From NCBI RefSeq assembly GCF_030684315.1, contig NC_081376.1:20627018-20691017 (forward strand): a DNA stretch of 64,000 nt. The letters run 5' to 3'. This document shows positions 8,371 through 58,360 of the stretch, piece after piece; the first letter of the stretch is position 1, and each line of letters begins with the position of its first letter. This stretch comes from Stegostoma tigrinum (lineage: Eukaryota). The notes beneath the pieces were generated by a model, which did no database searches, had not been told where the DNA came from, and worked only from the letters and a program-made list of their open reading frames with translations. The position numbers and the translations under genes are program-made.

Positions 8371-8710
8371 CAAGATAATAAAATGAGAGGCTGGATGAAC
8401 ACAGCAGGCCAAGCAGCATCTTAGTAGCACAAAAGCTGACGTTTCGGGCCTAGACCCTTCATCAGAAATGGTGGAGAGGGTTCTGAAATAAATATGGGGG
8501 GAGGGGGGGTCGAGCGCGGACAAGAGAGTTGCAGTGAGAGAGAGATCCCCTGAGGTTTGTCCGGAGGCAGGACGATAACTTCTTCAGGTTAGGCATCCCT
8601 AGAAGAGGCTTTGCATGAGGTCAAAATTGTATCAGAGATAATAGGAACTGCAGATGCTGGAGAATCCGAGATAACGAAGTGTAGAGCTGGATGAACACAA
8701 AGCAGCATTT
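8371..8710 (-). mobile_element. Internally deleted Penelope-like element (pLTR end, tail, putative 5' ORF start, second pLTR)
   Basis: Same pLTR and tail sequence as the RT/GIY-YIG-bearing copies at 13315, 30838 and 36671; hammerhead-like motif at 8436-8466. Confidence 0.75.
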
Positions 8711-10359
8711 TACTTGTACTTCTTTCAATCTAGTTCACCATATTCGCAGTTCACAATGTTACATTGGTGAGATCCAATACAGACTGGCTTTGTAGAACAC
8801 TCCCTCTCTATAAAAATGACAGTATTCTTCCAATTGCTTATATTTTCAATAATCTATCTTGCTTCCACGCCAACATCTCCATTCTATAAATAAAGAACTG
8901 AGGGGGCTGGAAAGCTAGAACATTACGGAAATTACTCCAAAAACTCACCAAGTCTAGCAGCATGTTTGGAGAGAAATCAGAGTTAACGTTTTGGATGCAG
9001 TGACGCTTCTTTAGAATTTCTGTTGTGGTGTTCTTGCAAAGTTTAATGTAAGCTGGAGAACCACCACTTCGCTCTACCTTTAGGTGCTTTACAGCCTTCA
9101 GAACTCAGATGTTAAATTCATTAATTTCAGAGAATGATCTCTGTCCTTAATGTTTATTTTGATTTCTCTCGCCCTGTCGCAACGTGTCTCGCTAATTTCT
9201 TGTTGGCTTCGCTTTCACCAGAACTGACCTATTTTTCTCTAATTCAAACGAACCACTCGTCCATTTTACATATAAAACTCTCCCTTGCTACGAGAAGTGT
9301 ACCCTTTGTCTTTAGTTCCGGATTGCCTCACCATCCGTCGCACTTACTCATCTTTCCCACCTTGCCAAGAGTATTGAAACAATACGTTGTCGCTCCCTTC
9401 AAGTCCGAAGAAGTCTTTGGATTCGAAAAGTTAATTTTGCTCCCTGTTCACAGATGCTGTCAGACCTGCTGAGATTCTCCAGTATTTTCTGGCTTTTTTA
9501 AAAAAAACATTCTTTCGGATATTGAATTTAATTTCGTCACTTATTCAGCCACCTCTGTTTAGATTTTCCTGTGTTTTGATACAGCCCTTCACGATATTAT
9601 CTAAACCCACTCCTATATGATGTAAGCCGATGTAAAATTTTGATACAATTCCTCCAATTTCTGGGTCTGAACTACGTGGACAATAATGCACCAGGTGCGA
9701 CAGCTTCATGTTTATCCGTCCAAGAGCCTTCCACCAGGTCCGAAGTTTTTCAAAATTACCAGTGCTTCTCCCCTCAAAATATCTGTGTTGACCATTGTGT
9801 CACTTTGTCTAATTGTCTGTCCTTTTTGCTCTATGTCTCCTATTTTTGTGCTTTGCGAATGGCTGATATCCGAATACTGAGCTACTTGAGTTGGTTGTCA
9901 CCTTGGGTAAAATTTGATGCTACGTTCGGTGAGTCGGGCACTAGGACAGACGTACTGCAAAGGTGCATCAAATATTCACACTGTTTACGAAGAACCCACA
10001 GCCTGCTCTGGGATCAGAAATGTCAGGAGTGGTGCAACAGCAACATAAATGGCAAACGGATCGAAGATTGTGATTCTGGATTTACTGCTCGAAGTCAAAG
10101 AGATCAAAACATTTCATTCTTCATCAAGTGGAATTTAGTAATTTCTGTCTCTGATCTCTGCTACAAGTTTGCGTTGCCATCATGCACTGATGGGGTGATT
10201 CTTCTCTGCTATCTATGATTTCAGTTGAATTTAGGACACTAGAAATCTACGAACGCCAGGATTGTAACTGTAGATGATGCGGCACAATAAAATAATAAAC
10301 ACCCCACTGTCCAAATTCCATCAATAATCGCCCTGACAGCAAGAATATCCTAATGATCA

Positions 10360-10600
10360 ATTCCACACGCGCTCGCTCGCTGAAGGGAAGGGATGAGCAG
10401 CTCGGGCGGACCGATTGATAGTGGGTGGTGCGGCAGACCGGCGCATTTAGATGAATGAACCAGCGGACAAATGTAGAAACGGACCAGACTTCCGGTTGTG
10501 AGTAGAATTTGCAGAGAGTGAAGTAAAGCAAGGGCTGAGCTGAAGGACGGTGAACAGAACCCCGCTGTCGGACTGCATCGAGTCCAGGGAGGGTAGGACT
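10360..10600 (+). promoter_or_regulatory. MLST8: Probable MLST8 promoter and non-coding first exon
   Basis: Local CpG enrichment, GC box GGGCGG at 10404, ETS motif ACTTCCGGT at 10488-10496, candidate donors GTGAGT (10498), GTGAAC (10550) and GTAGGA (10593). The ATG exon has an acceptor (ttacag, 16280), so an upstream exon is expected. Confidence 0.55.
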
Positions 10601-10619
10601 GATGACGGAGTCTGGGTTT

Positions 10620-11404
10620 ACTAAACGTCAGTTTTCCTGCTCCTGAGATGCTGCTTGGCCTGCTGTGTTCATCCAGCTACACACTTTGTTATCAGAGATA
10701 ATGGGAACTGCAGATGCTGGAGATTCCAAGATAATAAAATGTGAGGCTGGATGAACACAGCAGGCCAAGCAGCATCTCAGGAGCACAAAAGCTGACGTTT
10801 CGGGCCTAGACCCTTCATCAGAGAGGGGGATGGGGGGAGGGAACTGGAATAAATAGGGAGAGAGGGGGAGGCGGACCGAAGATGGAGAGTAAAGAAGATA
10901 GGTGGAGAGGGTGTAGGTGGGGAGGTAGGGAGGGGATAGGTCAGTCCAGGGAAGACGGACAGGTCAAGGAGGTGGGATGAGGTTAGTAGGTAGCTGGGGG
11001 TGCGGCTTGGGGTGGGAGGAAGGGATGGGTGAGAGGAAGAACCGGTTAGGGAGGCAGAGACAGGTTGGACTGGTTTTGGGATGCAGTGGGTGGGGGGGAA
11101 GAGCTGGGCTGGTTGTGTGGTGCAGTGGGGGGAGGGGATGAACTGGGCTGGTTGAGGGATGCAGTGGGGGAAGGGGAGATTTTGAAACTGGTGAAGTCCA
11201 CATTGATACCATATGGCTGCAGGGTTCCCAGGCGGAATATGAGTTGCTGTTCCTGCAACCTTCGGGTGGCATCATTGTGGCAGTGCAGGAGGCCCATGAT
11301 GGACATGTCATCAAGAGAATGGGAGGGGGAGTGGAAATGGTTTGCGACTGGGAGGTGCAGTTGTTATCTCGGATTCTCCAGCATCTGCAGTTCCTACTAT
11401 CTCT
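10620..11404 (-). mobile_element. 5'-truncated Penelope-like element (10694-~11360, -) nested in an older plus-strand pLTR of the same family
   Basis: ORF 11046-11306 encodes the GIY-YIG C-terminus (RRLQEQQLIFRLGTLQPYGIN); the host pLTR is split into 10620-10693 and ~11361-11404 with ttgttatc at both junctions. Confidence 0.85.
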
Positions 11405-11454: not shown

Positions 11455-11935
11455 AGAGATAATGGGAACTGCAGATGCTGGAGAAACCAAGATAACGAAG
11501 TGTGGAGAGATAATGGGAACTGCAGATGCTGGAGAATTCCAAGATAATAAAATGTGAGGCTGGATGAACACAGCAGGCCCAGCAGCATCTCAGGAGCACA
11601 AAAGCTGACGTTTCGGGCCTAGACCCTTCATCAGAAAAGGGAGATGGGGAGAGGATTCTGAAATAAATAGGGAGAGAGGGGGAGGCGGACTGAAGATGGA
11701 TAGAGGAGAAGTTAGGTGGAGAGGAGAGTATAGATTTCGGGCCTAGACCACTGTCTCCTCTCCACCTATCTTCTCCTCTATTCATCTTCGGACCACCTCC
11801 CCCCCCCCTATTTATTTCAGAATCCTCTCCCCATCTCCCTTTTCTGATGAAGGGTCTAGGCCTGAAATGTCAGCTTTTGTGCTCCTAAGATGCTGCTTGG
11901 TCTGCTGTGTTTATCCAGCTCCACAACTTGTTATT
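11455..11935. mobile_element. Non-coding miniature palindromic Penelope derivative (two inverted pLTRs, doubled tail)
   Basis: Minus-strand pLTR to ~11735 followed by plus-strand pLTR ~11750-11935; tail agagataatgggaactgcagatgctggagaa occurs twice at the left end. Confidence 0.8.
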
Positions 11936-11959: not shown

Positions 11960-13314
11960 ATTGGGACCAGCCTTCCTGGTCCCTAGAGCCTGCTCGCGCA
12001 ATTACATAAATTCATGGTTAATCTGATTACTCCTCATTTCAGTCTGCCCCAATAACTAACTCCAACCCCGCTTCCAAAGAATCAATCAACCTCCGTCTTA
12101 AAATATTAACAAAAATATCCACTTGTACCACCTCTGAGGAAGAGAGTTCCAAAAATGATTGAAGATATAAAATCTCCTAATTTATTTATTAAATGGGTGT
12201 TCTTTTAGTTTTGAACAGCAACCCAGAGTTCTGGATTTTCCAACTAGAGGAAACATCCTTTATATCCTGTCAGAACCTCTCAGGATCTTGTGTACTTCAA
12301 AGAAGTCACCTCTTTCTCATCCAAACTCTCCTGAATACCAGGTGAGCTTGACCACTTTTTCTTAAGAGTCTACCTGTTGCTTTTGGGAATGAGTCAGTTA
12401 AATCTCTAAACTGCTTCCCATGCGTTTACTTGCTATCTTAAATAAGAAAACAAATTCTGTATGCCACTCCAGACATGATCGTATCAATGCTTGTTACAAC
12501 TGAACCATAACCTCCATACTTAATATATTAAATTTCTGTTGCAATAAATTATAACATTCTGTTACCATTGTTAATTACTTGCTGTTTCTGCATATTAACT
12601 TTTGTGATTTGTGTATTAGGACACATTACTTTGCAACTCTGTAATTGCTCACTATTTAAAAATGCACTTTTTTATTCTTCACACAAAATGGACAATTTCC
12701 CCTGTCCTCAAGTTGTCACGTACCCTCCTTTTTCACGTAACTTATTTATATATATTAATATATACCTTACCTACATATGTAGCCTTCATATTTCATGTTT
12801 ACAACTTGCCTTCCTACCTTTCTTTGTGTCATCAGCAGATTTAGCAACCATAATTTCAATATCTTTATCTAAAGTAACATATAAATTGTAAAAAGCTCAG
12901 CACTGATCCCTGTGGCACACTACTTGTTACATCTTGCCAAACAAGAAAAGACCTACTTATGCCTACTCGTTCTTCCCTGTTAGCTGCTAAATCTACTAGT
13001 CTTGCTGATGTATTACCACCTGCATCATGAGTCTTTAATTTCTGCAATAACTTTTGGTGTGGCACCTTATCAAGTTTGTTCTGGAAATCAAAGTTCCATC
13101 CATCTTTTATCCATGTCCTTTTTATCCAAAATAGCACATTTAATTTCCTTAAAGAATTTCAATAAATTGGTCAAATGTGATATCTCTTTCATAAAAATAT
13201 ATTGACTCTTCCTAATTACCTTAAATGTTTTGAAATGCACTGCTATAATGTCTTTAATATTAGCTTGTCATACCTTCACTATGATGAATGTTAAGCCAAC
13301 TGGACTATCATTTT
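11960..13314 (-). mobile_element. Decayed CR1-clade LINE, continuing after the Penelope insertion to about 16100
   Basis: ORF 12865-13137 reads DFQNKLDKVPHQKLLQKL...VTSSVPQGSVL (RT motifs DFxKAFDKVPH and GVPQGSVL). Confidence 0.75.
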
Positions 13315-15650
13315 AATAAAATGTGAGGCTGGATGAACACAGCAGGCCAAGCAGCATCTCAGGAGCACAAAAGCTGACGTTTCGGGCCTAGACCCTTCAT
13401 CAGAGAGGGGGATGGGGGGAGGGAACTGGAATAAATAGGGAGAGAGGGGGAGGCGGACCGAAGATGGAGAGTAAAGAAGATAGGTGGAGAGAGTGTAGGT
13501 GGGGAGGTAGGGAGGGGATAGGTCAGTCCAGGGAAGACGGACAGGTCAAGGAGGTGGGATGAGGTTAGTAGGTAGCGGGGGGTGCGGCTTGGGGTGGGAG
13601 GAAGGGATGGGTGAGAGGAAGAACCGGTTAGGGAGGCAGAGACCGGTTGGACTGGTTTTGGCATGCAGTGGGTGGAGGGGAAGAGCTGGGCTGGTTGTGT
13701 GGTGCAGTGGGGGGAGGGGATGAACTGGGCTGGTTGAGGGATGCAGTAGGGGAAGGGGAGATTTTGAAACTGGTGAAGTCCACATTGATACCATATGGCT
13801 GCAGGGTTCCCAGGCGGAATATGAGTTGCTGTTCCTGCAACCTTCGGGTGGCATCATTGTGGCAGTGCAGGAGGCCCATGATGGACATGTCATCAAGAGA
13901 ATGGGAGGGGGAGTGGAAATGGTTTGCGACTGGGAGGTGCAGTTGTTTTTTGCGAACTGAGCGGAGGTGTTCTGCAAAGCGGTCCCCAAGCCTCCGCTTG
14001 GTTTCCCCAATGTAGAGGAAGCCGCACCGGGTACAGTGGATGCAGTATACCACATTGGTAGATGTGCAGGTGAACCTCTGCTTGATGTGGAATGTCATCT
14101 TGGGGCCTGGGATGGGGGTGAGGGAGGAGGTGTGGGGACAAGTGTAGCATTTCCTGCGGTTGCAGGGGAAGGTGCCGGGTGTGGTGGGGTTGGAGGGCAG
14201 TGTGGAGCGAACAAGGGAGTCGCGGAGAGAGTGGTCTCTCCGGAAAGCAGACAGGGGAGTGGATGGAAAAATGTCTTGGGTGGTGGGGTCGGATTGTAAA
14301 TGGCAGAAGTGTCGGAGGATAATGCGTTGTATCCGGAGGTTGGTAGGGTGGTGTGTGAGAACGAGGGGGATCCTCTTGGGGCGGTTGTGGCGGGGGCGGG
14401 GTGTGAGGGATGTGTCGCGGGAAATGCGGGAGACGCGGTCAAGGGCGTTCTCGATCACCGTGGGGGGAAAGTTGCGGTCCTTAAAGAACTTGGACATCTG
14501 GGATGTGCGGGAGTGGAATGTCTTGTCGTGGGAGCAGATGCGGCGGAGGCGGAGGAATTGGGAATAGGGGATGGAATTTTTGCAGGAGGGTGGGTGGGAG
14601 GAGGTGTATTCTAGGTAGCTGTGGGAGTCGGTGGGCTTGAAGTGGACATCAGTTACAAGCTGGTTGCCTGAGATGGAGACTGAGAGGTCCAGGAAGGTGA
14701 GGGATGTGCTGGAGATGGCCCAGGTGAACTGAAGGTTGGGGTGGAAGGTGTTGGTGAAGTCGATGAACTGTTCGAGCTCCTCTGGGGAGCAAGAGGCGGC
14801 GCCGATACAGTCATCAATGTACCGGAGGAAGAGGTGGGGTTTGGGGCCTGTGTAGGTGCGGAAGAGGGACTGTTCCACGTAACCTACAAAGAGGCAGGCA
14901 TAGCTGGGGCCCATGCGGGTGCCCATGGCCACCCCCTTAGTCTGTAGGAAGTGGGAACACCTCCGCTCAGTTCGCAAAAAACAACTGCATCTCCCAGTCG
15001 CAAACCATTTCCACTCCCCCTCCCATTCTCTTGATGACATGTCCATCATGGGCCTCCTGCACTGCCACAATGATGCCACCCGAAGGTTGCAGGAACAGCA
15101 ACTCATATTCCGCCTGGGAACCCTGCAGCCATATGGTATCAATGTGGACTTCACCAGTTTCAAAATCTCCCCTTCCCCTACTGCATCCCTCAACCAGCCC
15201 AGTTCGTCCCCTCCCCCCACTGCACCACACAACCAGCCCAGCTCTTCCCCCCCACCCACTGCATCCCAAAACCAGTCCAACCGGTCTCTGCCTCCCTAAC
15301 CGGTTCTTCCTCTCACCCATCCCTTCCTCCCACCCCAAGCCGCACCCCCCGCTACCTACTAACCTCATCCCACCTCCTTGACCTGTCCGTCTTCCCTGGA
15401 CTGACCTATCCCCTCCCTACCTCCCCACCTACACTCTCTCCACCTATCTTCTTTACTCTCCATCTTCGGTCCGCCTCCCCCTCTCTCCCTATTTATTCCA
15501 GTTCCCTCCCCCCATCCCCCTCTCTGATGAAGGGTCTAGGCCCGAAACGTCAGCTTTTGTGCTCCTGAGATGCTGCTTGGCCTGCTGTGTTCATCCAGCC
15601 TCACATTTTATTATCTTGGAATCTCCAGCATCTGCAGTCCCCATTATCTC
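13315..15650 (-). mobile_element. Penelope-like retroelement (Neptune-type), 5'-truncated palindromic insertion
   Basis: Left arm 13315-~14955 (-) has an uninterrupted frame with RT motifs QTKGVAMGTRMGPSYA, RYIDD and FLD, the Cys linker CNRRKCYTC, and GIY-YIG VVYCIHCTRCGFLYIGET..RFAEH. Right arm ~14956-15650 (+) is an inverted copy of the 3' part. TSD ctggactatcatttt at 13300-13314 and 15650-15664. Confidence 0.95.
15522..15553 (+). ncRNA. Minimal type I hammerhead-ribozyme-like motif in Penelope pLTR
   Basis: ct-CTGATGA-a-GGGT-ctag-GCCC-GAAA-c-GTC-ag has both catalytic core boxes, stem II and a GUC cleavage triplet; identical copy at 38072-38103; activity not shown. Confidence 0.7.
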
Positions 15651-16302
15651 TGGACTATCATTTTCCTGCTTTCTGTCACCACTTTTTTAAAGCAATTGCA
15701 TTTGCTGTTTTCCTATCTAATGGAGCCTTCGTCAAATTTTGGAAAACTAAAACCAACTATCCGAATGGCCAGTTCTTCTCAGGTCTGAGAATGAAGTGCA
15801 TCAGGACAGGGACTTGTCATCCCTCAGCTCTGACAATTTAAAGAGTACCTCTTTCCTGGTGATTGTAATTTCTTGAGTTCTCCCATAACATTTCCAAATT
15901 AACAGTTATTTCTGGGATGTTACTGCTATTCTCTATAGTGGATACTGATGCAAAATACTGGTTTAATTCATCTGCCTTTTTATTTTCCATTATTAATTCT
16001 CCAGATTCAATTTCTATGCTTATTTTGTTAACTATTTTCTTTGATAAATATCTTCAGAAACTCATTATCTGATCTTATATTTCTAGCCAGAGTTTTCTTG
16101 CACTCTAATTTTTTCATCTTTATTAATTTGAGTTAACTTGATTTGAAGGTACAATCTCAGGATTCCAAACCAGGTCTGTGGCCACTATACTACCACATTG
16201 ACAAAGGTCAGCATAGCAGTGGTTAAGGACTTGATGGTTGGCAGTTTTGGCAGTGAAGCTGAAATTCTTTTCTGTTACAGGTGACTGTTCAAGGCTAACA
16301 CA

Positions 16303-16431
16303 ATGAATACAAGTCCAGGCACAGTTGGCAGTGACCCTGTCATCCTGGCCACTGCTGGTTATGATCACACGGTCCGCTTCTGGCAAGCACACAGCGGTAT
16401 CTGCACTCGAACTGTGCAACATCAGGATTCT
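16303..16431 (+). CDS. MLST8: MLST8 (mTOR-associated protein LST8 homolog) coding exon 1 of 8
   Basis: [43 protein letters not shown] matches the vertebrate mLST8 N-terminus; acceptor at 16280; donor GTATCTGT at 16432. Confidence 0.98.
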
Positions 16432-19167
16432 GTATCTGTACCAAATTGTATGTGTTTGTTTGGACCTGATTATTTCTGTGGTTCATGTACATAGACACCC
16501 AGGTCACTCTCAAGACCCAAAAATTCACAGTCTCACCTTTCGAAAAATAATCAGTGTCATTGAACTTCTCTTACCAAGTTGTACTCATTCAACTTCTCTA
16601 TCCCTCTGCAGTCTTTTTATGTCTTCCACACTGCTAACTTTACACTTAACTTGCACCATGCCCAGACTCTGATACTTTGCATTCAGTTCCCTCCTCCAAG
16701 TTATTGATATAACTTGTAAAAAACTCAGGCCTAAGCATTAACCATATCTTTTTACAGTTGCCAACAGTAACATATTTCTTCTATTCTTACCTACTCTTTC
16801 CTCTCTTTTAACCAATCTTTATCCAGTGCAAATATTGCCAATCCCATGAGTCCTAAGTTTGTTGTATAAGCTTTTGTGTGACAATTTATCAAATGTTTTT
16901 TGGAAGTCAAAGACCCTCTGTACTCATTGGAATTTAGAAGAATATAGAAACAAAAAAAATTATGGAGGGAAAAGGTAAGAATGAAGCAGGGAGGTTGTTT
17001 CCGCTGGCGGGTGAAACAAGAGCTAGGGGGCATACTTCAAAATAAGTGGGAACAGATTTAAAACTGAGTTAAGGGGAAACTTCTTCACCTGAAGAGTTGT
17101 GAATCTGTGGAACTCCCTGCCCAGTGCAGCAGATGAGGCTACCTTGTTGAATGTTTTTCAGGCAAAAATAGATATAACTTTGAATAGTAAAGAAATTAAG
17201 GGTTTGTAGTGAGCAGATAGGTGAGTGGAACCGAGTCCACGAAAAGATCAGCCATGATCTTATTCAATGGTGGAGCAGGCTTGACAGGGCACGTGGCCTC
17301 CTATTTCTTACGTTTTTATTTGCTAGATCTCCCTTATCCGTCCTGCTTGTTACATATTCAAAAAATGCCATCAGATTTGTCAAAAGTAAATTTGCATTGA
17401 CTCTGTTTATCATACTATCATTTTCCAAGTACCCTGTTACCACATTCCTAATAATAGATTCTACGATTTTGTCTGCTACTAATGTAAAACTAAATGTCCT
17501 ACCAATCCCCATGTTCTGCCTTTCTCCTTTTTTAAACAGCAAGGTTATGTTTGCTCCTGTCCAATCCTTAGGAATTCTTCTGGAATCTGTGGGGTTATGG
17601 TAGACCAAATAGTTTTGGAAAATCAGGCATCCAGATTAAATATTTTTAAAAATCCTGTTTTGAGCAAGCATGAACTTCTTGTGTCCTGTCCCTAGCAGCT
17701 ATGGATCTACATGATTATCTTCCATAAAGGGACTGTGAGCACACCTCAATTCACAATCTCCATAGTAAGTGAACTAGCCCACTCTACAATGCACTGTTGC
17801 AGATACGTCCCACATACATCGTGGAAACAGACCGTTCACTCCAACTTGTTTATGCTGAACAAGCTTCCCAAATTAAACTCATCCCACTTGCTTGTGTTTG
17901 GCCCATATCACTCTAAACCTTTTGTATTCATGTACCTGTCCAAATGTCTTGTAAATTTTGTAACTGTGCCTTCCATCTCCCATTTCCTCTGCAGTTCATT
18001 CCACCTAGCAACCACCTTCTGTGTGATGAAGTTTTCCTTCAAGTCCCTTTTAAATCTTTTCCTCTCATCTTAAAAATATGCCCTGTAGTTTTAAACTCCC
18101 CTATCCTAAGGAAATCGTTTCTGAACCCCATCCAATTTAATAATATCCTTCGTATAGCATAGTGACCAGAATTGTATACAGTATTCCAAAAGTGGCCTCA
18201 CCAACATTCTGTACAACCTCAACTTGACATCCCAACTCCTATACTTAGTGGTCCGAGTAAGCTTGCTAAATGCATTCTTAGCCACTCTGTGTCCTTTTCA
18301 TGGGACATTCAAAGAACTATGTAGCTGAACCCCTGGGTATCTCCATTTCATATCACTACCCAAGGCCCTACCATTAAGTATATAAATCCTGCCCTTGTTT
18401 GTTTTACCAAAATGCAGTACCTCGTATTTATCCAAATTAAACTCAGTCTGCCGCTCCTAAGCCCATTGGCCCAATTGTTCAAGATGCCATTTTAATCTTA
18501 GATAACCTTCTTCACTCTCTGTTATGTCACCAATTTAGGTATCATCCGCAATCTTACTAACATGCCTCTTAAATTGTCATCTAAATCCTACCTCTTGACT
18601 CACACCAAGCCTGCTTCCAGCTGTTTATCTTTCGTATGCTGTTCAACTTAATGTATGATCCCTGAGAAGTCTATGCATTCCCATAGGTCTATGGATCACA
18701 ATTGCAAAATATTAATTTAGATAGAAATGTGAATGAGTATCGCCTTGTTGCATAAACAGCATGTGTACAGCAACATTCAGATAAACAGCAGTTTAATAAA
18801 TTACACGGTTGATTGCACGTACCCTGCCTATACCATTATACAAGGATATGTAGTAGTTGATGCAGCATACGTTTAATGGACAGCAGACATTATGCCTGTA
18901 TTTTAAGTAACGTCGCAAATATGCAGAATTCAGGATTTGTTACAGGAAGTCCCATAAAAACTTATAATATGTATGGCTTCTTCATGACAAGCTTCTTCGT
19001 GACCATTTAATGTGTAGAGTGAACGAGCATCACTGCCTGCACATTTATGCAATCAAAATCACCAGTGAAATCTTCAGTGTTTTATTGAAGATCCAGCTAG
19101 GAGCTAAGTTTGCAAATGACTGTGAATTCCTCTTTCATTTATTCTGCTTCCTTAACAAAGTTTCCAG

Positions 19168-19219
19168 CAAGTGAATGCCTTGGAAATCACCCCAGACCGC
19201 AGTATGATTGCAGCAGCAG
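19168..19219 (+). CDS. MLST8: MLST8 coding exon 2
   Basis: QVNALEITPDRSMIAAA(G); acceptor ttccag preceded by TTCCTTAAC; donor gtaagc. Confidence 0.97.
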
Positions 19220-20053
19220 GTAAGCAGAGTTTATACTGTATTACAAAGAACCCTACAGCACAGGAACAGGCCCTTCAGCCCTCCAAGCTTGCGCCGATCA
19301 AGATCCTCTGTCTAACCTGTCATCTATTTTCTAAGGGTCAGTGTCCATTTGCTCCCTGCCCATCCATGTACCTGTCCAAATATATCTTAAAAGATGCTAA
19401 CGTGTCTGCGTCTATCACCTCCGCTGGCAACGCATTCCAGGCACCCACCACCCTCTGTGTAAAGAACTTTCCACGCGTATCTCCCTTAAACTTTCCTCCT
19501 CTCACTTAGATCTCATAACCCCTAGTATTCTTCATGGTTTTTAATCAGCCCTGTAGTAATGACCCTTGCACCTAACTCCATACTGGGAAATGTGCAATAA
19601 TTGAATTCCTTATCAAGAGTGAAAATATAATCATTGTTTGATATACAACTTGTGTTTAGTTGAAATGAAATTAGTAACTGATGCACGCATTACTCTTAAC
19701 ATCAGGTATTCTTACATCCATAGGTTGGCTTCCCCATGGGTGAGAGAAGGAAAGGAGGGATGCCTTTCTCATTCTCTGTTCTTATTCAAGGCGTATCAAT
19801 TATTGTACTCATGCCCGACACACTTAATTTTCCTGAAATTAACATTATTTATGTAACAAAAACATTATTTCCCCAACGGGCCTGATGCATCGTGTTTTGT
19901 GCTTACTTTCTGAAGAACAAGAGCTTCGTTTTCGACCATGTCTCTGCACAGTCTTATAACACAGAGTATGATTTGAACCATGTTATGTGATGTAAAATGT
20001 GCACACATTGTAAGCGCCACCTGGTAAAGTTACTTTTCTGGTCCACCTTGTAG

Positions 20054-20216
20054 GGTATCAGCATATCCGAATGTATGACCTAAATTCTAACAACCCGAAC
20101 CCAGTCATCAACTATGATGGAGTCAGCAAAAACATCACCTCAGTGGGATTCCATGAGGATGGGCGCTGGATGTATACTGGTGGGGAGGACTGCATGGCAC
20201 GAATCTGGGACCTCAG
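20054..20216 (+). CDS. MLST8: MLST8 coding exon 3
   Basis: [53 protein letters not shown](R); AG/GT boundaries in phase. Confidence 0.97.
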
Positions 20217-21099
20217 GTAATTAACTGAGACAAACAATAAATTGTCAGCCGTGGTCCATTCAGCAACATTCTCAGATTTAAGCCAGAAAGTTGTGCATTG
20301 AAGTACCACTCCAGAGATTTGAGCACATAATCTTTGCTGACAATGTTGTCGACCTTTAGCACCGTTGGAGTTGCTGTCTTTTCATTGCAACATTAAATAT
20401 ATGCCTTGTTTGCTGTCTTGGGTGTATGTGAAACACTCCATTGTATTGTTCTGTAGAGGAACAGTGCATTTCTTTTCAGTATTCTGCCCACTGTTTATCT
20501 TTTGTTGATTTTAGGGGTTGATAATTACATGTTCCTGATATAGGTTGTTGACAATCTGCAAGTAATTACTAGATAGTTGATTCAGATTATTAAGAACAGC
20601 AGTTAAGATATGATACATTAGCTAATTAGATAAAGCGAGTATGCAACGATGATAACCAGGTGGCTCACAAATACCAGAGAACAAACACACTTTTGGTGCA
20701 GATTGTGTCAGTCTCATTTAGTTCGTGAAGGCATCATGCGGCTTTCTTGCCAAGATGTTAGGGAACTCTTCTTTGGGTCTTTCCCCTTCTGTTCTGATCC
20801 ATTTTCCATCTGGAGAAGACAGCTCCCTGATGAGGACTGCTGCTTATGAGGACTGCCCTCTGCCCTGGAGCACTTTTATTTCTAGGTGATGGTAGTTCAC
20901 GCTTATCACTGAATTGTCTGAATCCGTTTGGTCAATAACCAAGGGGCAGCTATGCATGACATTGGATGACTTTGTCTCCTTGCTCACCTACATCTGAAAG
21001 TTGGTTTTTGTTCCTTCCAAGAACAAAATCATTTTATTTTCAGAAACACTGATAGAAGTCTATTTACCACTGTAATGCAGTTAAATGAGTTAAAATGCA

Positions 21100-23390
21100 G
21101 AAGAAAGGCAGGCCGATACAAAAGGTGAATTACAGAAACTTGGTTGTGAGAGGGGCAAGACTGGCAGCTTAACATTCTGGGATTTAGATGTTTCCGGGGT
21201 GTGGTAGAGAGGGATGTAAAAGAGGTGGTGGTGTTGCTTTACTGATTAGAGAGAATATCACAGTTGAACTGAGGGAGGAGACCTTGGAGGGCTCATGCAG
21301 CATGGCCCTAGGGGTAGAGTTCAGGAATAGGAAGGGTACAGTCACTTTGATGGGATAGTATTACAGGCCTCACAATAGCCAGCGATTGATAGAGGAACAA
21401 ATATGTAGACAGATTATGGGAAAAAAACAACAAGGTTGATTTGGTGGGGATTTTGACTTCCCCTATATTGACTGGGACTTGCTTAGTGTCAAGGATTTGG
21501 ATGGGGAAGAATTTGTTAGGTGTGTCCAAGACAAGTTTTTTGTAACAATATGTAAATAGTCCTACTAGGGAATGGGCCATTTTAGAGGAATGAGGCTATT
21601 TAGGTGATGGAAGTTTCAGTGGGAAAGCGTTTTGGAAACAGTGACCCTAATTCTGTAAGTTCTGAAATACTCATGGATAAGGGTAAGAGTCATCCTTGGG
21701 TGAAAGTGGTAAATTGGAGGAAGGCTAATTATAACAATATTAAGCAAAAACTGGGGAATGTAGACTGAAGGCAGCTGTTTCAGGGTAAATCCACATCTGT
21801 TGTGTGAGAATCTTTTAAAGGCTAGTTGATTAGAGTTCAGGTTCAGCATGTTTCTATGCAAATGAAGAATAAGGATGGTAAGGCTTGGGAATCTTGGAAG
21901 ACAAGGAATTGAAAGCTTAGTCAAAAATTGAAAGGAGGCATACAAAAAGTCAAGAAAATGGAAGAAGTACAGACACCTCGAAGAATACAAAGACAGCAGG
22001 AAATAACTCAACAAAGAATTAGATTGGCTAAAGGGGACCATGAAATACCTTTCGCAGATGGGATTTTCTGTGATCCTATAACAATTTGTTCATATGTAAG
22101 GGGCGGCACGGTGGCTCAGTGGTCAGCACTGCAGCCTCACAGCACCAGGGACCCGGATTCGATTCCAGCCTCGGGTAACTGTCAGTGTGGAGTTTGCACA
22201 TTCTCCCCGTGTCTGCGTGGGTTTCCTCTGGGTGCTCTGGTTTCCTCCCACAGTCCAAAGATGTACAGGCTAGGTGGATCGGCCATGTTAAATTGCCCAT
22301 AGTGTTCAAGGGTGTGAGGGTTATTGGGAGATGGGTCTGTGTGTGATGCCCCAAGGGACATGTGGATTTGTTGGGCCAAAGGGCCTGTTTCCACACAGTA
22401 GTGGATCTGATCTAAGGGAAAGGGTAGGTCCACTCAAAAACAAAGGAGGGAATTTATATGTGGAACCAGAGGAAGTGAGTGAGGTCCTTAATAAACACTT
22501 TGCATCAGTATTCACTGAGGAGAAGGGCATGCTGGATGATGAATCCCAGGATGGCTATGTTGATATTGTGGGCATTTCAAGAAACAAAAGGAGGTATTGG
22601 GTGTTTTAAAATGCATTAGGTAGGGAAGGCCCCAGGACCTGATGGGATCTATCCCAGAATGGTGAGGGAGGCAGGTGAGGAAGTTGCTGGGACCCTTGAT
22701 GAAATCTCTGTATGCTCTTTAATCGCAGGAGAGGTCCCATAGGACTAGAGAATAGCCAGTGTTGTTCATTTGTTTAAGAAATGCAAGAGGAATAATCCAG
22801 GAAGTTACAGGCCGGTGAGCTTTACATCAGCAGTAGGGAAATTATTGAAGAAGATTCTTCAGGATAGGATTGACTCACATTTGAAAAGTATGAATTATTA
22901 GTGATAGGCAGTCTGGCTTTGTGCGAGGAAGGTCATGTCATGAGTTTTTTGAGCAAGTGACAAAGTTAATTGATGAGGGTAGGGTGGTAGTTGTTGTCTA
23001 TATGGACTTTAATACGGCCTTTTGGTAGTGTCGAGCAAGGCAGGCTGATACAAAAGGTGAAGTCTAATTGGATCTGTGGTGTGCTGGCAAGATAGTTACA
23101 GAAGAGAGAGAGAGAGTGATGGTGGGAAGGGTAGAGACTTGGGCAGCGAAATGACAGATAGAGTTTAATCCAGATGAATGCGAGGTGACGCATTTTGGGA
23201 AAGGTCTAATGCATGGGAATAGTATACAATAAATGGTAGACCCTTAGTAGCATCAACATACATGGAGATCTAGGCCTGCAGATCCACAATTCCCTGAAAG
23301 TGATAATATTGTCAAGGAGGCATATAGCATGCTTGTCTTCATCGATTGGGGCATAAAAATTGGCAAGTCATGTTACAGCTGTTTAGAACA
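21100..23390 (+). mobile_element. Decayed CR1-clade LINE (endonuclease through RT), interrupted by HE1 SINEs and resuming at ~24560-25000
   Basis: Degenerate ORF2 motifs (gacttcccctatattgactgg = DFPxIDW; LNKHFASVFTEE; ccaggacctgatgggatctatcccaga = PGPDGIYPR; SYGVRLNKL..LELRRMR). Confidence 0.8.
22100..22410 (+). mobile_element. HE1-type tRNA-derived SINE (V-SINE)
   Basis: A box tggctcagtgg, B box gattcgattcc, V-domain gtggagtttgcacattctccccgtgtctgcgtgggtttcc, LINE-like 3' tail gggcctgtttccacac. Confidence 0.9.
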
Positions 23391-23697
23391 TCAGCAGCAT
23401 GCTAGCTCAGTGGTTAGCTCTACTGTCTCACAGAGCCGAGGACCTGGGTTCGATTCCAACATTGGGTGACTGTCTGTGTGGAGTTTGCACCATCTCCCTG
23501 TGTCTGCATGGGTTTCCTCTGCTTGCTCCAGTTTCCTCCCACAATCCAAAGATGTGCAGGCTAGATGGATTTGCCATGCTAAATTGCCTATAGTGTTCAA
23601 GGATGTGTAGATTAGGTGGGTTTTAGGGGGATGGGTGTGGACTTGTTGGACCAAAGGGCCTGTTTCCACACTGTAGGAATTCTGTGATGATCTATGA
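23390..23697 (+). mobile_element. HE1-type SINE
   Basis: Same A/B boxes, V-domain and tail as the 22100 copy. Confidence 0.88.
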
Positions 23698-24231
23698 TAG
23701 TCAAAGAGAAGGAGCAATTGGAGACATTTAGGATGCAGGCCACTGAAAGTGTAGCCACTAACAGTGGAGTAACTGAAACTATACATGTGTAAGGGGCCAG
23801 AATGAGAGGAGCACAGATACCGTGGAGGGTTGTGGGATTATAGAACTGTACAAAGATACATAGACGTGAGGCATTTAAGGGATTCTGGAGTGGACAGACT
23901 GTATCTTTTATTTTTCTGTATTTTTATTGTGGACTTAAATGAGAAAAGAACACTTTTAAAAACCAAGGATCACTGAAGGATTTTGCACATTCCAAAGATA
24001 TGCAAGTCGGGCAGATTTGAAATAAAATGTCCTAAGTGTATAGGCTAGGTGGATTAGACATGGTAAGTGGGGGGATACAGTAGGGGGCTGGGTCTGAGTG
24101 GAAAGCTCTTCAGAGGGTTGGTGTGGACCCAGTGGGCCAAATGGCCGCCTTGTAGAGGTTCTATGAATTCTCTACATACAATTACAAAATGGCTTGGACA
24201 ATGCTAAATGGGCAGAGTCAGTATGACTTTT

Positions 24232-33746: not shown

Positions 33747-33803
33747 TTGGACCGTGGACCATGTGGATCTTATCCATGGGATATTGTCACTATTGTTTTA
33801 CAG

Positions 33804-38198: not shown

Positions 38199-38214
38199 AC
38201 TTCCAGCTGAGTAC

Positions 38215-40895: not shown

Positions 40896-41014
40896 CCTCT
40901 TCAGATAACCTTGCGCGCCTGTGGTGTGTGGAGACAGGTGAAATTAAACGGGAATACAGTGGCCATCAGAAGGCAGTCGTGTGCCTTGCCTTTAATGACA
41001 GTGTTCTGGGCTGA
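40896..41014 (+). CDS. MLST8: MLST8 coding exon 8 (stop)
   Basis: (A)[38 protein letters not shown]; exons sum to 981 nt = 326 aa plus stop; AATAAA candidates at ~41971 and ~42001. Confidence 0.98.
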
Positions 41015-43583: not shown

Positions 43584-46500
43584 CTGGTTAAGTTAAGAAG
43601 AAATCAGTGTTTTCTCTGTATAACTCTTCAGGTTTTTCACATGGTAAATTGGCTACTTACACTTTGTAAATTCTCATTGTCAACATCGCCCCATGGCATT
43701 CCACCCTTCCCTACCCCACCTCCTTTTCTCTCTCTAACCACCTTCACCTCTTTCTGCTGCAGTGTTCCATTGAAGCCCAACACAAGCTTGAGGAACAATT
43801 CATGTCATATTTAGACACTTTATAACTGTCTCGATTCAACTTTCAGCTAACCTTCAGACCATTAACTCTGGCCTCTTTTGTTTCTATTTGTCAGTGTTAG
43901 TGTGTATCTTTGTGATTTTCCTTTCTGGCAAATCTCAGGTGAAGTACAAAAGATTTTAAGAAGACATAGTCCAATAATTGGATAGTTAGATGGTAGTTTC
44001 TATTGGCTTTCTTGGTAATGCTTAATTCTATTCTACAGGTATTTAACAATTTTTGTTTCAACAAATCCAATTTGTGGAGCCAAATGAGGTGTTTTATGCT
44101 GCAAATAATATGTAATTTAAGATGTGTCTCAAATTCCACCATCGCAATTTTACATTGTGATCTTGTCTGTGCTGATCACCTCTTTCACCAGTGCCAAGCC
44201 AGACTTGTCGAACATAAACCACACTCTGCACTTGACTGAGCAACAAACTAAGATGGAATGCATAATGTCATTGGAGAAAGGAATTCCCGACAATGGAAGA
44301 GAGAAATAAAAACAGTCACTTTTATAGTAAATGAAATGCAGAGGAAATGTAATTTGCATAGGATGAATGATCGCAAGCACTAAATATTTGTGCACGTATA
44401 ATTTTGCAAAACTCATGAATAATTAACAAACACAATAGGTAAGTGAAACGCTTTGAGCAGAATTTAGTCATGCATAGAGCAGGTTTGATACTTTATTCGT
44501 GCGAAATTTAACTGAACTCAGATGGAGAATGGTTGTGGCAAAATGGCTTTAGTGACTTTGGATCATTCAGGGAGAAAATGAATGTACATAAGCATCTGCT
44601 GGAGAGTGGAAATCAGGTAAGACTTTAATCACACATATTTCACCAGCTCTGTCAGAGGTCACACATGAAAAATATTTGCTTAGGCGACATTACTGGAACT
44701 GTATCCCTGAAATGATCAGTACCAACAGATGAAGATAGGAGAGTGTTTAGTGGACCCTATAGATACAAGTGAATACTCTATATTTTCCTGGAACCTAGTT
44801 TTCCTCGATGATGGAAAGTCTGTGTGAAAGCATGACTGGAATCATTTTGGAGATGTGAGCTGAGATGGTGTTTCAGCGCAGCATTCCAATATAATGCTGC
44901 AACTTTTACAGTGAGAATGGAACAAAGCAGGTTTTGTGTTAAATCCACAGCCACTCATGAAGGGATGCATTTCATTTCGGGCCTTAGCCCACTGCCAGAA
45001 ATGCGCAGGGTGAATTCTGTTTGCTGGTTGTAACCATCAGTTTTAATGGGTAACAAATTTAACTTTTAGTTAATTCAATTGCCAGGTCTATGAGAATATT
45101 AATATATTTATTAGTTACTTATTGTCCTTTTCCTTATGAAAAGTGTGTTTGAATACTTGTGCATATCCTGCAGCTGCCCCATCCATGTAAATCCTGGTGT
45201 GTTGAAGATATGAGTAGAAACCCCATGAGCCTGCTCAGTCCTTATTCATGGTTTCATTTCAAACTAAAGATGGATTTCAAAGACATTATTTACTTATATT
45301 GAGCAATTTAGGCTCCTTGCCAGCTAAGTCAGTACAGTAAATATCACTGGCATTAAAGAAAACCGGATGGCTATGTAAATTTTCCTGCTTCAGAACAATC
45401 ATTTTTAAAATCCACTTTAAGGGTATATTGCCAATCTTACACTTTTAATAACTTCAGAATTTGAATTTCACAACACAAGAATTAAGAGTAGGAGTTGGCC
45501 TCTCAACTCTTGAGCCTGCACTGCATCCATTCTGAAGCTGTCATCCCTTTGTGGACTAACCCAAAATGGGAATATTTTCTCATCATTTATCCTGTTAAGA
45601 CTTATCAGGATCTTAAATTGTTTCATTAAGATTATTTCTTATTCTTCCAAATTCCAATGAATAAAAGGTTCAACTTCAGCATTTACTCATGAAAAAACCC
45701 CTGATTAGCAGTGATCAACCTAACAAACTGACTCTGATTCAAGTAAATCCTTCAGTAAATAAGGAAACCAAAACTTCAAGCAGTTTTCAAGATATGTTCT
45801 CACCGGTTCCCTGTACAATTTAGTGAGACATCCCTGTTTTTATACTCCAACCCCCTTAACAAGAAGGGCCAACATTCTATTTGCTTTGCTGATTACTTGC
45901 TGTACCAGTATGCTAACTGTGTGATTTAGGCATGAGCTACTCAAATGTAGCAATTCTTCATTTAAATAATATTCTGCCTTTTGTTTCCCTGTCAAAGTTG
46001 ACCAGCTATTATTTTCCTACAATATTCTCCATCTGTCAATTTTATCCACTCACTTTTTTTGCCATTTGTAGACTCTATATTTTTCTGATAATTTGCTTTC
46101 CTACCTATTTTTAAATTGACAGCAAATTTGGCTACAATCTACTCTACCTTCATCCAAGCCATTATATAGATTGTAGATGGTTGAGGTTCCATTCCTAATA
46201 CTTGTGACACCCCACAAGTTATGACAATATTTTGTCAAACTGAAAATCACACAATGACTCTTTGCATTTTGTTAACCAGTCAGCTATGCTCGCTTACAGA
46301 TTACCCGGCACCATGAGCTCTTGTGTATTTATCTTTTATGTGATACGTTTCACTGGAGTCCCGAAGGGTGTAAACCTGAAACGTCAATTTTCTTTCTCCC
46401 CTGATGCTGCCTGACCTGTTGTGTTCCTCCAACTCCACACAGTATTGTCTATAACCAATGCATTTCTTTAAGACCCCAAGATGAAGGCTATCAGGATCAG

Positions 46501-56644: not shown

Positions 56645-56689
56645 GATCAAGATGGGAAGGTCGCCTGGAGAGGAACCAGCGAAGATGCC

Positions 56690-57115
56690 ACTCGGGTCCC
56701 GCCCCTGCAGCTATGACCACGCCCAGACCCGATTAGCCACGCCCGCTGTCACCACAACCACGCCCCCGAAATATCAAATCCCGTCCCCAGACACAAGGAC
56801 CGCGCTCCCTGGGGGAGCATGTCCCCGCCCCATCCCACTTCGACCACGTCCCCAGCCGGACAAACCCACGCCCCCACATCCGACAGACACCACGCCCAGA
56901 CTGCGCCGACCGCGTCCCCGCCACTCAGACGCCAAGGCCGCGCCCCAACCTGCCCGTTCCCCACCATCACCCCATCGCGCCTCGCCAGGCTTCCGTTCCG
57001 CACCCGTCGTACCCCGTCCCCGCACTGCCAGCTCGGCTGTTTCCCCCCCCCCCGCTCAGTACCATTCCGCCACCCATTCTTCCTGATTCACACACACACC
57101 CCGCCGGAAACTACA
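56690..57115 (-). promoter_or_regulatory. PGP: PGP CpG-island promoter with Sp/KLF boxes
   Basis: GC-rich and CpG-dense; CCACGCCC at 56717, 56737, 56758, 56866 and 56890, plus CCCCGCC boxes. Confidence 0.75.
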
Positions 57116-58244
57116 TGCAAAATAGAAGTAAAGTATTTGTGTGTGCTGGGGATCTGAAATAAAGATAGAGTGCTGGAGAAACCTAAGAACAGTCACGTCG
57201 GATTCAACGTTAACTTTGCTTCTCACTCCACAGGTGTTGCCAGACCCGCAGACTTTGTCCAGCACTTTTACTTTATCCTTAATTTTTAAACCGCGCCCCC
57301 CGCCAGCATCTCGATTCTGTCGCAAGAGAAATAATTCTCTCAGCAAGTTCGCTGTCAAGCCCCTTCAGAATTTTAAGCGTTTTAGTACTTTTCATTCTTT
57401 TGAGCTCCAATGAATATAGGCCAACCTGCCTTTCCCAAATTTTGTTTTACCACAATCACTGATAGTTTCATAGTTACTAAGATCAGCCGTCTGTAATAAT
57501 TAGTACAAAGACCAAAGACTGCAGCTATCATATTCAAATTGAATAAGAAACTCCAGAGAAACAGACTCTGGCATCTGTCATGTGTTTAAAAGAAAGTAGA
57601 CGAACAGGTGAACGATTTGTTAGAGATAGTAAGAACTACAGATGCTTTCTCCAAAGATGGTGCCAGACCCCGAACTTCATCCTGTGTTTGTTTTTTCTGG
57701 ATCCCATTCTCAGCTAGTTGAGCCGGGGAGGGTTTACAGAGGGGGGAGTCCCAACTGGACTCTTCCCTGGCCCTTCCCCCCGCCCCCCGCCCCCGCCAGG
57801 TCTTGGGGCGTTGTTTGTTCCACTCATCACCGCAGTTCCATCTCGCTGGTACTGCCAGTCCTGGGGAAGGCTCAACGAATCTGAAACGTTAACTCTGATT
57901 TTTCTTCACGGATGCTGCCTGACCTGCTGAGCTTTTTCTGCAACTGTTTTAGTCGCCAGTGCTGTACAGCCCCAGCCCGAAACCTCCACATCAATCTTGG
58001 CAGTAGGCACCCCCACAGAGTTGGTCTCCATGATGCAGGTATTAATCCCAGGGTAATTGTTTATAACACCAAACTACAGTCCGCTAACGTTGCATTTTCA
58101 GCACACTCCACTACCGTAGTGGGATTTGCCCCAGCTTCACTGGGCAGGAAAAAAAACACTGAACAGCCAATTACATAATAAAATCTCATTGATAACTAAG
58201 AATTTCAATTGAATAGATCACATACAAAACAAACACAAGAGCTC

Positions 58245-58360
58245 GGAGACAGTAGGAACTACAGATGCTGGAGAAACTGAAATAACAAGGTGTAGGGCTG
58301 GATGAACACAGCAAACCAAGCAGGAAGGCTGACGTTTCGGGCCTAGACCCTTCTTCAGAA
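58245..58360 (-). mobile_element. Solo Penelope pLTR fragment with hammerhead-like motif
   Basis: gtaggaactacagatgctggagaa...gctggatgaacacagc...gacgtttcgggcctagacccttcttcag (CUGAAGA core variant). Confidence 0.75.

What the first reader, a model, noticed from the sequence alone, without database searches (positions are those of the whole stretch)
8436..58358. About a dozen minimal hammerhead-ribozyme-like motifs, several in the sense strand of MLST8 pre-mRNA
Seen: CTGA(T/A)GA-a-gggtctaggccc-GAAA-cGTC-ag occurs intact at 8436, 10792, 11604, 13373 and 58328 (-) and at 15524 and 38074 (+). Mutated copies lie at 11844, 26426, 30935, 33655 and 36736. It has an extra A after the CUGANGA box, a 4-bp stem II, an almost absent stem III (GAAA-CG-UC) and only a 2-3 bp stem I. 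Known: PLE pLTRs encode minimal type I hammerheads that generally cleave as dimers. Inference: the intact plus-strand copies are transcribed in MLST8 introns and could cleave the nascent RNA unless their inverted partner arm sequesters them. The palindrome would then act as a built-in ribozyme silencer.
Basis: partly seen in the sequence, partly recalled or inferred. Interest (0 to 1): 0.7.

Follow-up and report, generated by a model that had tools for sequence, protein, structure and literature searches.

The report
Penelope hammerheads in MLST8 introns
These are the known tiny self-cutting RNA motifs of a jumping gene with about 90,000 identical motif copies in this genome; the ones inside MLST8 are likely harmless passengers, but many copies elsewhere begin exactly at the predicted cut site, which hints that the motif does sometimes cut the jumping gene's own RNA.

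Summary
The motifs are real (11 copies within 3 mismatches, none in shuffles). They are the minimal hammerheads in the 3' pseudo-LTR of a Neptune-type Penelope-like retrotransposon (PLE), with 90,316 exact copies genome-wide: a described class.

The MLST8 reading is not supported. In 1.86 Mb of gene interiors of known strand, intact copies are 45 sense and 44 antisense. Those lacking an inverted arm are 23 and 19. The core decays as fast as its flanks. The monomer is predicted to fold into an inactive hairpin. The palindromes are the known insertion layout (59 of 63 pairs have the tail on one arm only), not a silencer.

The better lead lies elsewhere. 5' ends of copies pile up at the predicted scissile bond: 709 palindromes are centred there, against 50, 272 and 23 at three control words. 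In a second, unrelated PLE family with no microhomology there, 20 of 42 arms end exactly at the bond. This likely records in vivo cleavage of PLE RNA, but reverse-transcriptase stalling at a hairpin fits nearly as well.

The scan noted this footprint before on other DNA of this genome. The second family and the strand test were done here.

The parts
15524..15553 (+). Intact minimal hammerhead (F1 family); predicted cut after 15551; upstream of the first MLST8 coding exon, likely intron 1
38074..38103 (+). Intact minimal hammerhead; predicted cut after 38101; MLST8 intron between the exons at about 34.8 kb and 39.8 kb
8436..8465 (-). Intact hammerhead in a short PLE 3' piece (8371-8507), upstream of the likely MLST8 promoter
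10792..10821 (-). Intact hammerhead in PLE arm 10693-11365 (tail present), antisense to MLST8
11605..11634 (-). Intact hammerhead, left arm (11506-11723) of a short head-to-head pair
11844..11873 (+). Mutated hammerhead (two CpG-type changes), right arm 11758-11934
13305..14956 (-). Longest F1 PLE arm: 5'-truncated RT, C-X4-C-X2-C linker, GIY-YIG domain (open frame 13628-14956, 442 aa), 3' UTR with the hammerhead at 13374-13403, no tail
14955..15652 (+). Inverted partner arm, 99% complementary over 659 nt, carrying the 15524 hammerhead and the approximately 37-nt tail (about 15616-15652)
15490..15523 (+). TATTTAT box and pyrimidine run; 54 of 132 young truncated copies in the sample begin at the equivalent of 15518-15524, the likely transcription start of the element
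   Evidence: the start is inferred
26314..26455 (.). Old head-to-head mini-palindrome with two degenerate hammerheads (26397-26426 minus, 26426-26455 plus; stem II GGGU/ACCU)
30835..33751 (.). Older inverted PLE pair: minus arm 30835-32473 with a mutated motif at 30935; plus arm 32760-33751 with a mutated motif at 33655 (A9 changed)
36675..38201 (.). Inverted PLE pair: minus arm 36675-37670 (motif 36737, G12 changed, no tail); plus arm 37670-38201 (intact motif 38074, tail)
46358..46450 (+). Old piece lacking the 5' half of the core, downstream of the MLST8 stop
58246..58359 (-). Older short copy beginning at the hammerhead (58329-58358, N7=A), beyond the PGP CpG island
16281..41014 (+). MLST8 coding exons: 16281-16431, 19168-19219, about 20054-20216, 28870-28944, 33804-33956, 34809-34933, 39817-39981 and 40895-41014 (stop)
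   Evidence: (first three spliced)

Best explanation
The motifs are minimal hammerhead ribozymes in the 3' pseudo-LTR of a very abundant Penelope-like retrotransposon; the copies in MLST8 introns are likely harmless passengers that are predicted not to fold into a cutting shape alone, and the ribozyme likely cuts only occasionally, in the element's own RNA during retrotransposition. Shown: the location behind an RT + GIY-YIG frame, the copy number, neutral decay, no strand bias in genes, head-to-head pairs with a one-sided tail, and two preferred 5' boundaries. Inferred mechanism: (1) the element is transcribed from a start 0-6 nt before CUGAUGA; (2) an RT-endonuclease complex nicks both DNA strands and primes two cDNAs at the two sites that bound the 37-nt tail; (3) each cDNA runs until it is truncated or reaches the RNA's 5' end, and the two ends are joined head to head, giving the palindromes; (4) in about 0.5-2% of arms the RNA had been cut at GUC, probably as a protein-assisted dimer through the self-complementary ACGU, so the cDNA ends at the scissile bond. 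In a host intron there is no such protein and no close partner, and the core pairs with its own cleavage strand (CUGAUG with CGUCAG), so little or no cutting is expected.
For: PLE frame. 90,316 exact copies, reversed control 0. Strand test on 252 copies in 64 gene intervals: 129:123 for all, 45:44 intact; unprotected intact 23:19, 15:13 and 9:8 at 3, 5 and 10 kb. Exact copies are not depleted in genes (37 vs 28 per Mb). Core vs flank decay 26/1400 vs 112/6020. One-sided tail in 59 of 63 head-to-head pairs, and both long-arm and short-arm tails occur in the window. Predicted inactive fold -11.4 vs -3.5 kcal/mol, and stem I probability 0.0 in three contexts. Boundary counts around the cut, genome-wide, reference position 117 = first base after GUC: 109=318, 113=157, 115=162, 116=449, 117=3043, 118=394, 119=472, 124=1647. 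Palindrome centres: 709 (AGCT at the cut) vs 50, 272 and 23. Second family: 55 at cut+1 vs 19 at -2 and 29 at +9; 20 of 42 arms at cut+1 (read by hand). PMC11167929 (parts 1-2 of 4 read): the Anolis PLE hammerhead cleaves only with its protein, and the protein cuts and extends both strands and initiates at two sites bounding the tail.
Against: No cleavage was measured. The strand test excludes only a loss of more than about 35-40% of sense copies, and cutting an intron need not harm splicing (exon tethering, PMC4410947 passage), so lack of bias does not prove lack of cutting. Step 4 has a close rival. In both families the predicted inactive helix ends next to the cut site. In F1, a blunt join of two arms stalled at position 119 gives the same AGCT-centred sequence as two cleaved ends annealing. 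About 63 of 100 listed position-117 hits are palindrome centres, and the remainder (about 840-1440) is no higher than position 124 (1647). The local 1.96-Mb sample, which included old diverged copies, shows no step (29 vs 34 boundaries, P=0.61). PMC11167929 found no RNA-seq reads ending at the cut and no need for cleavage in vitro. No cap-G excess at the presumed start (22/54 vs 15/41). Pfam hits are below curated cut-offs.
Confidence: 0.75

Rival explanations
1. The hammerhead is an inert or nearly inert relic here. The pile-up of 5' ends beside the cut site comes from reverse transcriptase stalling at the inactive core/cleavage-strand hairpin, plus microhomology joining at AGCT. The identity of the motif and its harmlessness to MLST8 are unchanged.
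For: Predicted helices end at position 118 in F1 and have their stable part ending at -1 in the second family. AGCT-centred palindromes fit blunt joins at 119. Boundary counts vary about 10-fold between ordinary positions (157 to 1647). The local sample shows no step. PMC11167929 found no cut-site RNA ends.
Against: Non-palindromic boundaries are about twice as frequent at 117 as at 118 or 119 (about 1126 vs 394 and 472), the reverse of a stall at 119. An equally strong word 5 nt upstream (ACGT) gives 50 vs 709. In the second family the joins at cut+1 are blunt, with no microhomology. RT usually reads through the hairpin (54 ends upstream vs 4 at 117). Core and stems are kept across three divergent families.
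Confidence: 0.35
2. One reading: intact sense copies cleave MLST8 nascent RNA unless the inverted arm sequesters them, so the palindrome is a silencer that lets the insertions be tolerated.
For: In head-to-head pairs the antisense arm is always transcribed first and covers the motif. Both intact sense copies have such arms upstream, and the duplex is very stable.
Against: Unprotected intact sense copies are as common as their antisense counterparts (23:19). The intact fraction is equal on both strands (38/69 vs 41/71). Decay is neutral. The monomer is predicted to be self-inhibited. The two intact sense copies are 22.5 kb apart in different introns. The layout is explained by insertion (59 of 63 one-sided tails) and was already described.
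Confidence: 0.06
3. Palindromes arise by self-priming (fold-back) of one nucleic acid strand rather than by two independent primings, so 'both arms end at the cut' reflects one cut RNA, not a dimer.
For: PMC3846280 (passage) interprets junction palindromes as self-priming. Symmetric centres follow naturally from it. The excess of double-ended cases in the second family (7-8 of 21) needs no dimer.
Against: In two window pairs the longer arm lacks the tail and the shorter arm has it (13305-14956 with 14955-15652; 36675-37670 with 37670-38201), so each arm holds sequence that the other lacks.
Confidence: 0.3

Closest known systems
min-HHR of metazoan Penelope-like elements (Cervera and De la Pena 2014, PMC4209133; parts 1-2 of 4 read, figures and supplements not seen)
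   Same: [quoted passage not shown]
   Different: Stems are shorter than the Schistosoma ones described (II 4 bp vs 7-8; I 2 bp vs 4-5). 90,316 identical copies, against about 4,000 and 9,000 motifs reported for coelacanth and Xenopus. No shark is named in the parts read.
PAc, Poseidon element of Anolis (Frangieh et al. 2024, PMC11167929; parts 1-2 of 4 read, supplements not seen)
   Same: Hammerhead followed by a 30-40-nt tail bounded by two RT start sites; both-strand cutting and extension fits the paired arms; the ribozyme is protein-assisted.
   Different: This element has a Neptune-type Cys linker. That study found no RNA ends at the cut site, whereas genomic 5' junctions here cluster there.
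Complex EN+ PLE insertions with an inverted 5'-truncated copy and a one-sided tail (PMC8557442 and PMC3846280, passages)
   Same: Head-to-head inverted arms, junction palindromes, tail on one arm, TATA/Inr-like motifs in the pLTR.
   Different: Quantified here (59 of 63), with junction positions related to the ribozyme.
Non-LTR retrozymes (bioRxiv 10.64898/2026.07.22.740005; part 1 of 5 and passages)
   Same: Type I hammerhead derived from PLE pLTRs, found in introns as well as between genes.
   Different: Retrozymes are tandem arrays and were reported as depleted from Xenopus introns. These copies are dispersed or inverted and are not depleted in the genes sampled.

Membership tests
min-HHR of metazoan PLEs | CUGANGA and GAAA boxes with an NUH cleavage triplet | tested here: met
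min-HHR of metazoan PLEs | Extra nucleotide before stem II, G10.1-C11.1 pair, palindromic 15.2-16.2 | tested here: met
   A / G-C / CG in F1 and F2; U / G-C / CG in F3
min-HHR of metazoan PLEs | Compensatory change in stems across families | tested here: met
   Stem II GGGU/GCCC, GGGUC/GACCC, GUUACC/GGUGAC; stem I CU/AG, AGUU/AACU, UCA/UGA. Within F1 only one-sided U-G to U-A change (37 of 101 old copies), while the loop varies. Columns were matched by descriptor; no formal covariation statistic was run.
min-HHR of metazoan PLEs | Lies in the pLTR of a PLE | tested here: met
   About 225 nt behind the stop of the RT + GIY-YIG frame
min-HHR of metazoan PLEs | Self-cleavage as a dimer or with protein help | not testable with these tools
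   Only indirect junction evidence
Rfam hammerhead families | Match to a covariance model | tested here: not met
   No hit at E<=1 in the window or at E<=10 on 15480-15620; the motif lacks helix III and most of helix I
EN+ Penelope-like element | [quoted passage not shown] | tested here: met
   442-aa open frame; GIY-YIG E 0.00065 and RVT_1 E 0.023, both under the curated cut-off; 5'-truncated
EN+ Penelope-like element | Adjacent inverted 5'-truncated copy and a 30-40-bp tail on one end | tested here: met
   59 of 63 head-to-head pairs; 3' ends cluster at reference 178-186 and 212-218
EN+ Penelope-like element | Full-length partial tandem (pLTR-ORF-pLTR) and target-site duplication | not tested
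   No full-length copy in the window; sequence after the tail showed no shared continuation in the 25 of 82 rows printed; TSDs were not examined
Neptune clade | CX2-5CxxC linker between RT and endonuclease | tested here: met
   C-N-R-R-K-C-Y-T-C in the frame; definition from PMC8557442 and PMC3846280 passages; Nematis also has a linker
Neptune clade | RT phylogeny | not tested
   No tree was built
Non-LTR retrozyme | Tandem units each with a complete hammerhead | tested here: not met
   None in the window; 4 of 89 intact copies in the sample have a co-directional intact neighbour within 1 kb

The most novel reading that the evidence does not exclude
PLE minimal hammerheads do cleave in vivo, inside the retrotransposition complex and often in both RNA templates at once as the predicted dimer. 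The genome preserves this as thousands of insertions whose 5' ends lie exactly at the scissile bond, in two unrelated PLE clades. Junction mapping would then be an in vivo activity read-out for any PLE ribozyme, answering the open question of whether these motifs function at all.
Probability: 0.45. Interest if true: 0.65.

Novelty: new member of a known kind. Interest (0 to 1): 0.38.

Why it matters
The motif class and the palindromic layout are published, and the proposed effect on MLST8 fails its population-level tests, so the finding as written is ordinary. Two things are worth keeping. First, tens of thousands of intact-looking ribozymes sit in introns in either orientation with no sign of selection, which argues that they are safe without a silencer. 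Second, whether metazoan PLE hammerheads cut in vivo is stated as unresolved (PMC8557442, PMC11167929), and the clustering of insertion ends at the scissile bond in two families makes that directly testable. I found no paper reporting this clustering in searches. Lunse et al. 2016 and most subscription papers were not available, and supplements were not read.

Tried and rejected
Rfam: only spurious miRNA-type hairpin hits and no hammerhead.

Placing MLST8 exon 1 with RNA contigs on 9900-10597: the tool did not complete, so the intron-1 status of 11844 and 15524 stays inferred (GTGAGT donor at 10498; no CpG island passed my threshold there). No RNA holder was on record for the stretch. The three runs are guessed RNA from a related organism and are contigs, which cannot show RNA ends.

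Cap-G test at the presumed start: no excess.

Local 1.96-Mb boundary profile: no step at the cut site. Old diverged copies blur it.

Pfam on 113 frames around MLST8 to find neighbouring genes: 0 of 113 hit, so the transcription units over 8436 and 58329 are unknown.

A distal extension of stem I in F1 appears only under constraint, at about 10 kcal/mol above the minimum. A forced dimer with stems II and the 4-bp helix III scored -13.3 vs -38.0 for the cofold minimum.

The explanation of the cut-site palindromes by the 4-letter word alone was considered and rejected as insufficient (controls 50, 272, 23; blunt joins in the second family). RT stalling could not be rejected.

The F2 family was not used for junction counts: it is too diverged, and GTTAAC spans its cut. 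Lunse et al. 2016 is not held; only its title was seen, in a reference list.
Full report
1. OBSERVATION. The 30-mer occurs 11 times within 3 mismatches and never in 100 shuffles. Three more degenerate copies appear at 7-9 mismatches. The structure reads CUGAUGA, an extra A, stem II GGGU-CUAG-GCCC, GAAA, CG, UC, with a 2-bp stem I (CU/AG). No Rfam hammerhead model matches. MLST8 is on plus: exon 20053-20217 matches LST8 chains at E 1.6e-34, its first three coding exons are joined at GT..AG in contigs of three RNA-type runs from a related organism, and later exons were located by short recalled motifs. 38074 is intronic. 15524 is intronic only if an upstream exon lies near 10.5 kb. Two contigs carry unplaced 5' letters, but their place could not be shown.

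2. WHAT IT IS. Every copy is the 3' end of one retroelement lineage. The longest arm has a 442-aa open frame with part of an RT, a C-X4-C-X2-C linker and a GIY-YIG domain (Pfam scores under cut-off). The motif lies about 225 nt after the stop. This is an endonuclease-bearing Penelope-like element of Neptune type by the linker (no tree was built). The exact 30-mer occurs 90,316 times in the 3.2-Gb genome. That the host is a shark rests on recall and on earlier scan notes, not on a call. The motif has all four hallmarks that PMC4209133 lists for PLE min-HHRs. Two further families in the genome keep the core while changing both stems compensatorily. Within the main family stem II changes only one-sidedly (U-G to U-A in 37 of 101 old copies) while the loop varies.

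3. TESTING THE MLST8 IDEA. I fetched 192 tiles (1,863,371 bases, 12,126 N) between same-strand profile hits of 17 myosin, 26 kinesin and 21 HECT genes. The muscle-myosin cluster, some short intervals and leftovers under 6 kb were left out, and gene limits are inferred from hit order, not from an annotation. Of 441 pieces, 252 span the motif: 129 sense and 123 antisense; intact 45 and 44. Intact sense copies with no antisense arm upstream, against intact antisense copies with no sense arm downstream, number 23:19 within 3 kb, 15:13 within 5 kb and 9:8 within 10 kb (ratio CI 0.63-2.35 for the first). Exact copies are slightly denser in these genes than genome-wide (37 vs 28 per Mb). In 140 young copies the non-CpG core mutates at 1.86% and the flank at 1.86% after four subfamily-diagnostic columns were dropped (4.15% with them). 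So the host neither purges, protects nor preferentially breaks sense copies. Folding gives a reason. From the likely start site the core pairs with its own cleavage strand (-11.4 vs -3.5 kcal/mol for the hammerhead fold), and in longer contexts stem II is mostly lost. The two intact sense copies are 22.5 kb apart. Limits: modest power, and a cut intron can still be spliced (PMC4410947, passage citing Dye 2006).

4. THE PALINDROMES. Copies have two 3' ends, about 37 nt apart. In 59 of 63 head-to-head pairs one arm has the tail and the other lacks it. This layout is published for EN+ PLEs (PMC8557442, PMC3846280, passages). It fits PMC11167929, where the protein cuts and extends both strands and starts at two sites bounding the tail. 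In the window the tail is on the short arm twice and on the long arm once, which favours two primings over a simple fold-back. The geometry does place an antisense arm before every sense motif, whichever way a gene is read, but this is a by-product, and unpaired copies fare no worse.

5. WHERE COPIES BEGIN. The main 5' boundary is 0-6 nt before CUGAUGA (54 of 132 young truncated ends), about 30 nt behind a TATA-like box: likely the transcription start. A cap-G test was negative. A second boundary lies at the predicted cut. Genome-wide counts of three mismatched bases followed by element sequence are, by reference position (117 = first base after GUC): 109, 318; 113, 157; 115, 162; 116, 449; 117, 3043; 118, 394; 119, 472; 124, 1647. 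The anchors are about equally often intact (101-132 in the sample for the five positions checked). About 63 of the 100 listed hits at 117 are palindrome centres. The rest scale to about 840-1440, above 113-116, 118 and 119 but not above 124. Perfect palindromes centred on self-complementary 4-mers number 709 at AGCT (117-120), 50 at ACGT (112-115), 272 at GGCC (104-107, CpG-tolerant pattern) and 23 at GGCC (143-146). 40 of the first 50 of 992 close palindromes are AGCT-centred. The second family (F3, Poseidon-like frame) has no such word at its cut. It gives 55 boundaries at cut+1, against 19 at -2 and 29 at +9; after removing palindrome centres and indel-like prefixes by hand these are 39, 11 and 14, and the +9 pattern is less sensitive. 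Of 21 close palindromes (control 2), 20 of 42 arms end exactly at cut+1, 7-8 have both arms there and 4 are blunt joins (read by hand). With a downstream anchor, 8 of 39 have both arms there and the next commonest centre has 4 (overlaps). Such ends are about 2% of F1 arms and 0.5% of F3 arms (rough scaling).

Against this reading: the local sample shows no step (29 vs 34). In both families the predicted inactive helix ends beside the cut, so RT stalling predicts nearly the same ends, and in F1 a blunt join at 119 is indistinguishable from annealed ends at 117. An earlier scan note reports a LINE that targets this ribozyme (e1-8593294, untested), which could add non-palindromic junctions. I put cleavage at about 0.5, stalling at 0.3 and microhomology or other causes at 0.2.

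6. MECHANISM. Shown: identity, copy number, neutral decay, no strand bias, paired arms with a one-sided tail, two preferred 5' boundaries. Inferred: transcription from just before the core, two-strand priming at the tail sites, head-to-head joining, and occasional protein-assisted cleavage, probably as a dimer through ACGU, that defines a minority of cDNA ends. Predicted: little or no cleavage in MLST8 pre-mRNA.

7. KNOWN AND NEW. It works like the PLE min-HHRs of PMC4209133 and the protein-assisted PAc ribozyme of PMC11167929, and it meets every min-HHR feature that could be tested. Activity could not be tested. It is not a tandem retrozyme. Papers seen: PMC4209133 and PMC11167929, parts 1-2 of 4 each; bioRxiv 10.64898/2026.07.22.740005, part 1 of 5 and passages; PMC8557442, PMC6765202, PMC2377424, PMC3846280 and PMC4410947, passages only. 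No supplements were read, and those of PMC11167929 (Fig. S2) bear on copy ends. Searches returned no paper reporting junction clustering at the cut. The scan itself had noted both boundaries in this genome (e1-9888490, e1-9868529), and two notes attribute the cut-site centre to the 4-letter word alone (e1-9873180, e1-9815704). These notes were read after my counts and are not independent evidence.

8. VERDICT. Observation confirmed; family assignment right; the MLST8-cleavage and silencer inference unsupported. New member of a known kind, interest 0.38. The in vivo cleavage footprint has probability about 0.45 in its full form and would merit about 0.65.

Noticed in passing
window 55892-56710 and 54557-54928 (-): Two exons of a HAD-family phosphatase (Hydrolase_6, E 1.9e-29) with a CpG island at 56.1-57.3 kb. 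The name PGP, and its neighbourhood to MLST8 in human, are recalled.
   Followed up: partly
window 15490-15524; F2 copies in L011-L202: Likely PLE promoter just before the hammerhead: TATTTAT about 30 nt upstream in F1; TATAAA plus TCAGTT (initiator-like, recalled consensus) in F2, whose first four transcribed bases AGUU would form stem I with AACU. 54 of 132 young F1 5' ends fall at this site.
   Followed up: partly
L011-L202: At least three hammerhead-bearing families share the genome: F1 (252 spanning copies), F2 (72; 36 sense and 36 antisense) and F3 (27; 15 and 12). F3 follows a GIY-YIG frame without the Cys linker, so it is Poseidon-like, and its frame runs into the hammerhead.
   Followed up: partly
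L011-L202: F1-lineage PLE pieces cover at least 144,809 of 1,863,371 bases (7.8%) of the gene interiors sampled. Long 95-99% inverted pairs in introns could form dsRNA for editing or small RNAs.
   Followed up: no
window 15527-15568: The AUG inside CUGAUGA opens a 13-codon frame (MKGLGPKRQLLCS). In Anolis PAc the ORF start also overlaps the hammerhead.
   Followed up: no
window 10593-10693: A PLE piece begins at AAACGTCAG just behind a chance-looking CTGATGA in unique sequence, so a hammerhead-like core is recomposed across the insertion junction without a proper stem II.
   Followed up: no
window 11361-11545 and 8628-8699: Extra and repeated tail pieces (tail hairpin 11361-11490, tandem tails at 11449-11545) suggest repeated priming at one target.
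   Followed up: no
window 16170-16281: One RNA-type contig (X2) reads unspliced into the intron before the first coding exon, while two others carry 44 and 27 unplaced 5' letters.
   Followed up: partly
window 22103-24454 and 61769-61942: A tRNA-head SINE-like repeat in four to five copies (families D8, D16, D20).
   Followed up: no
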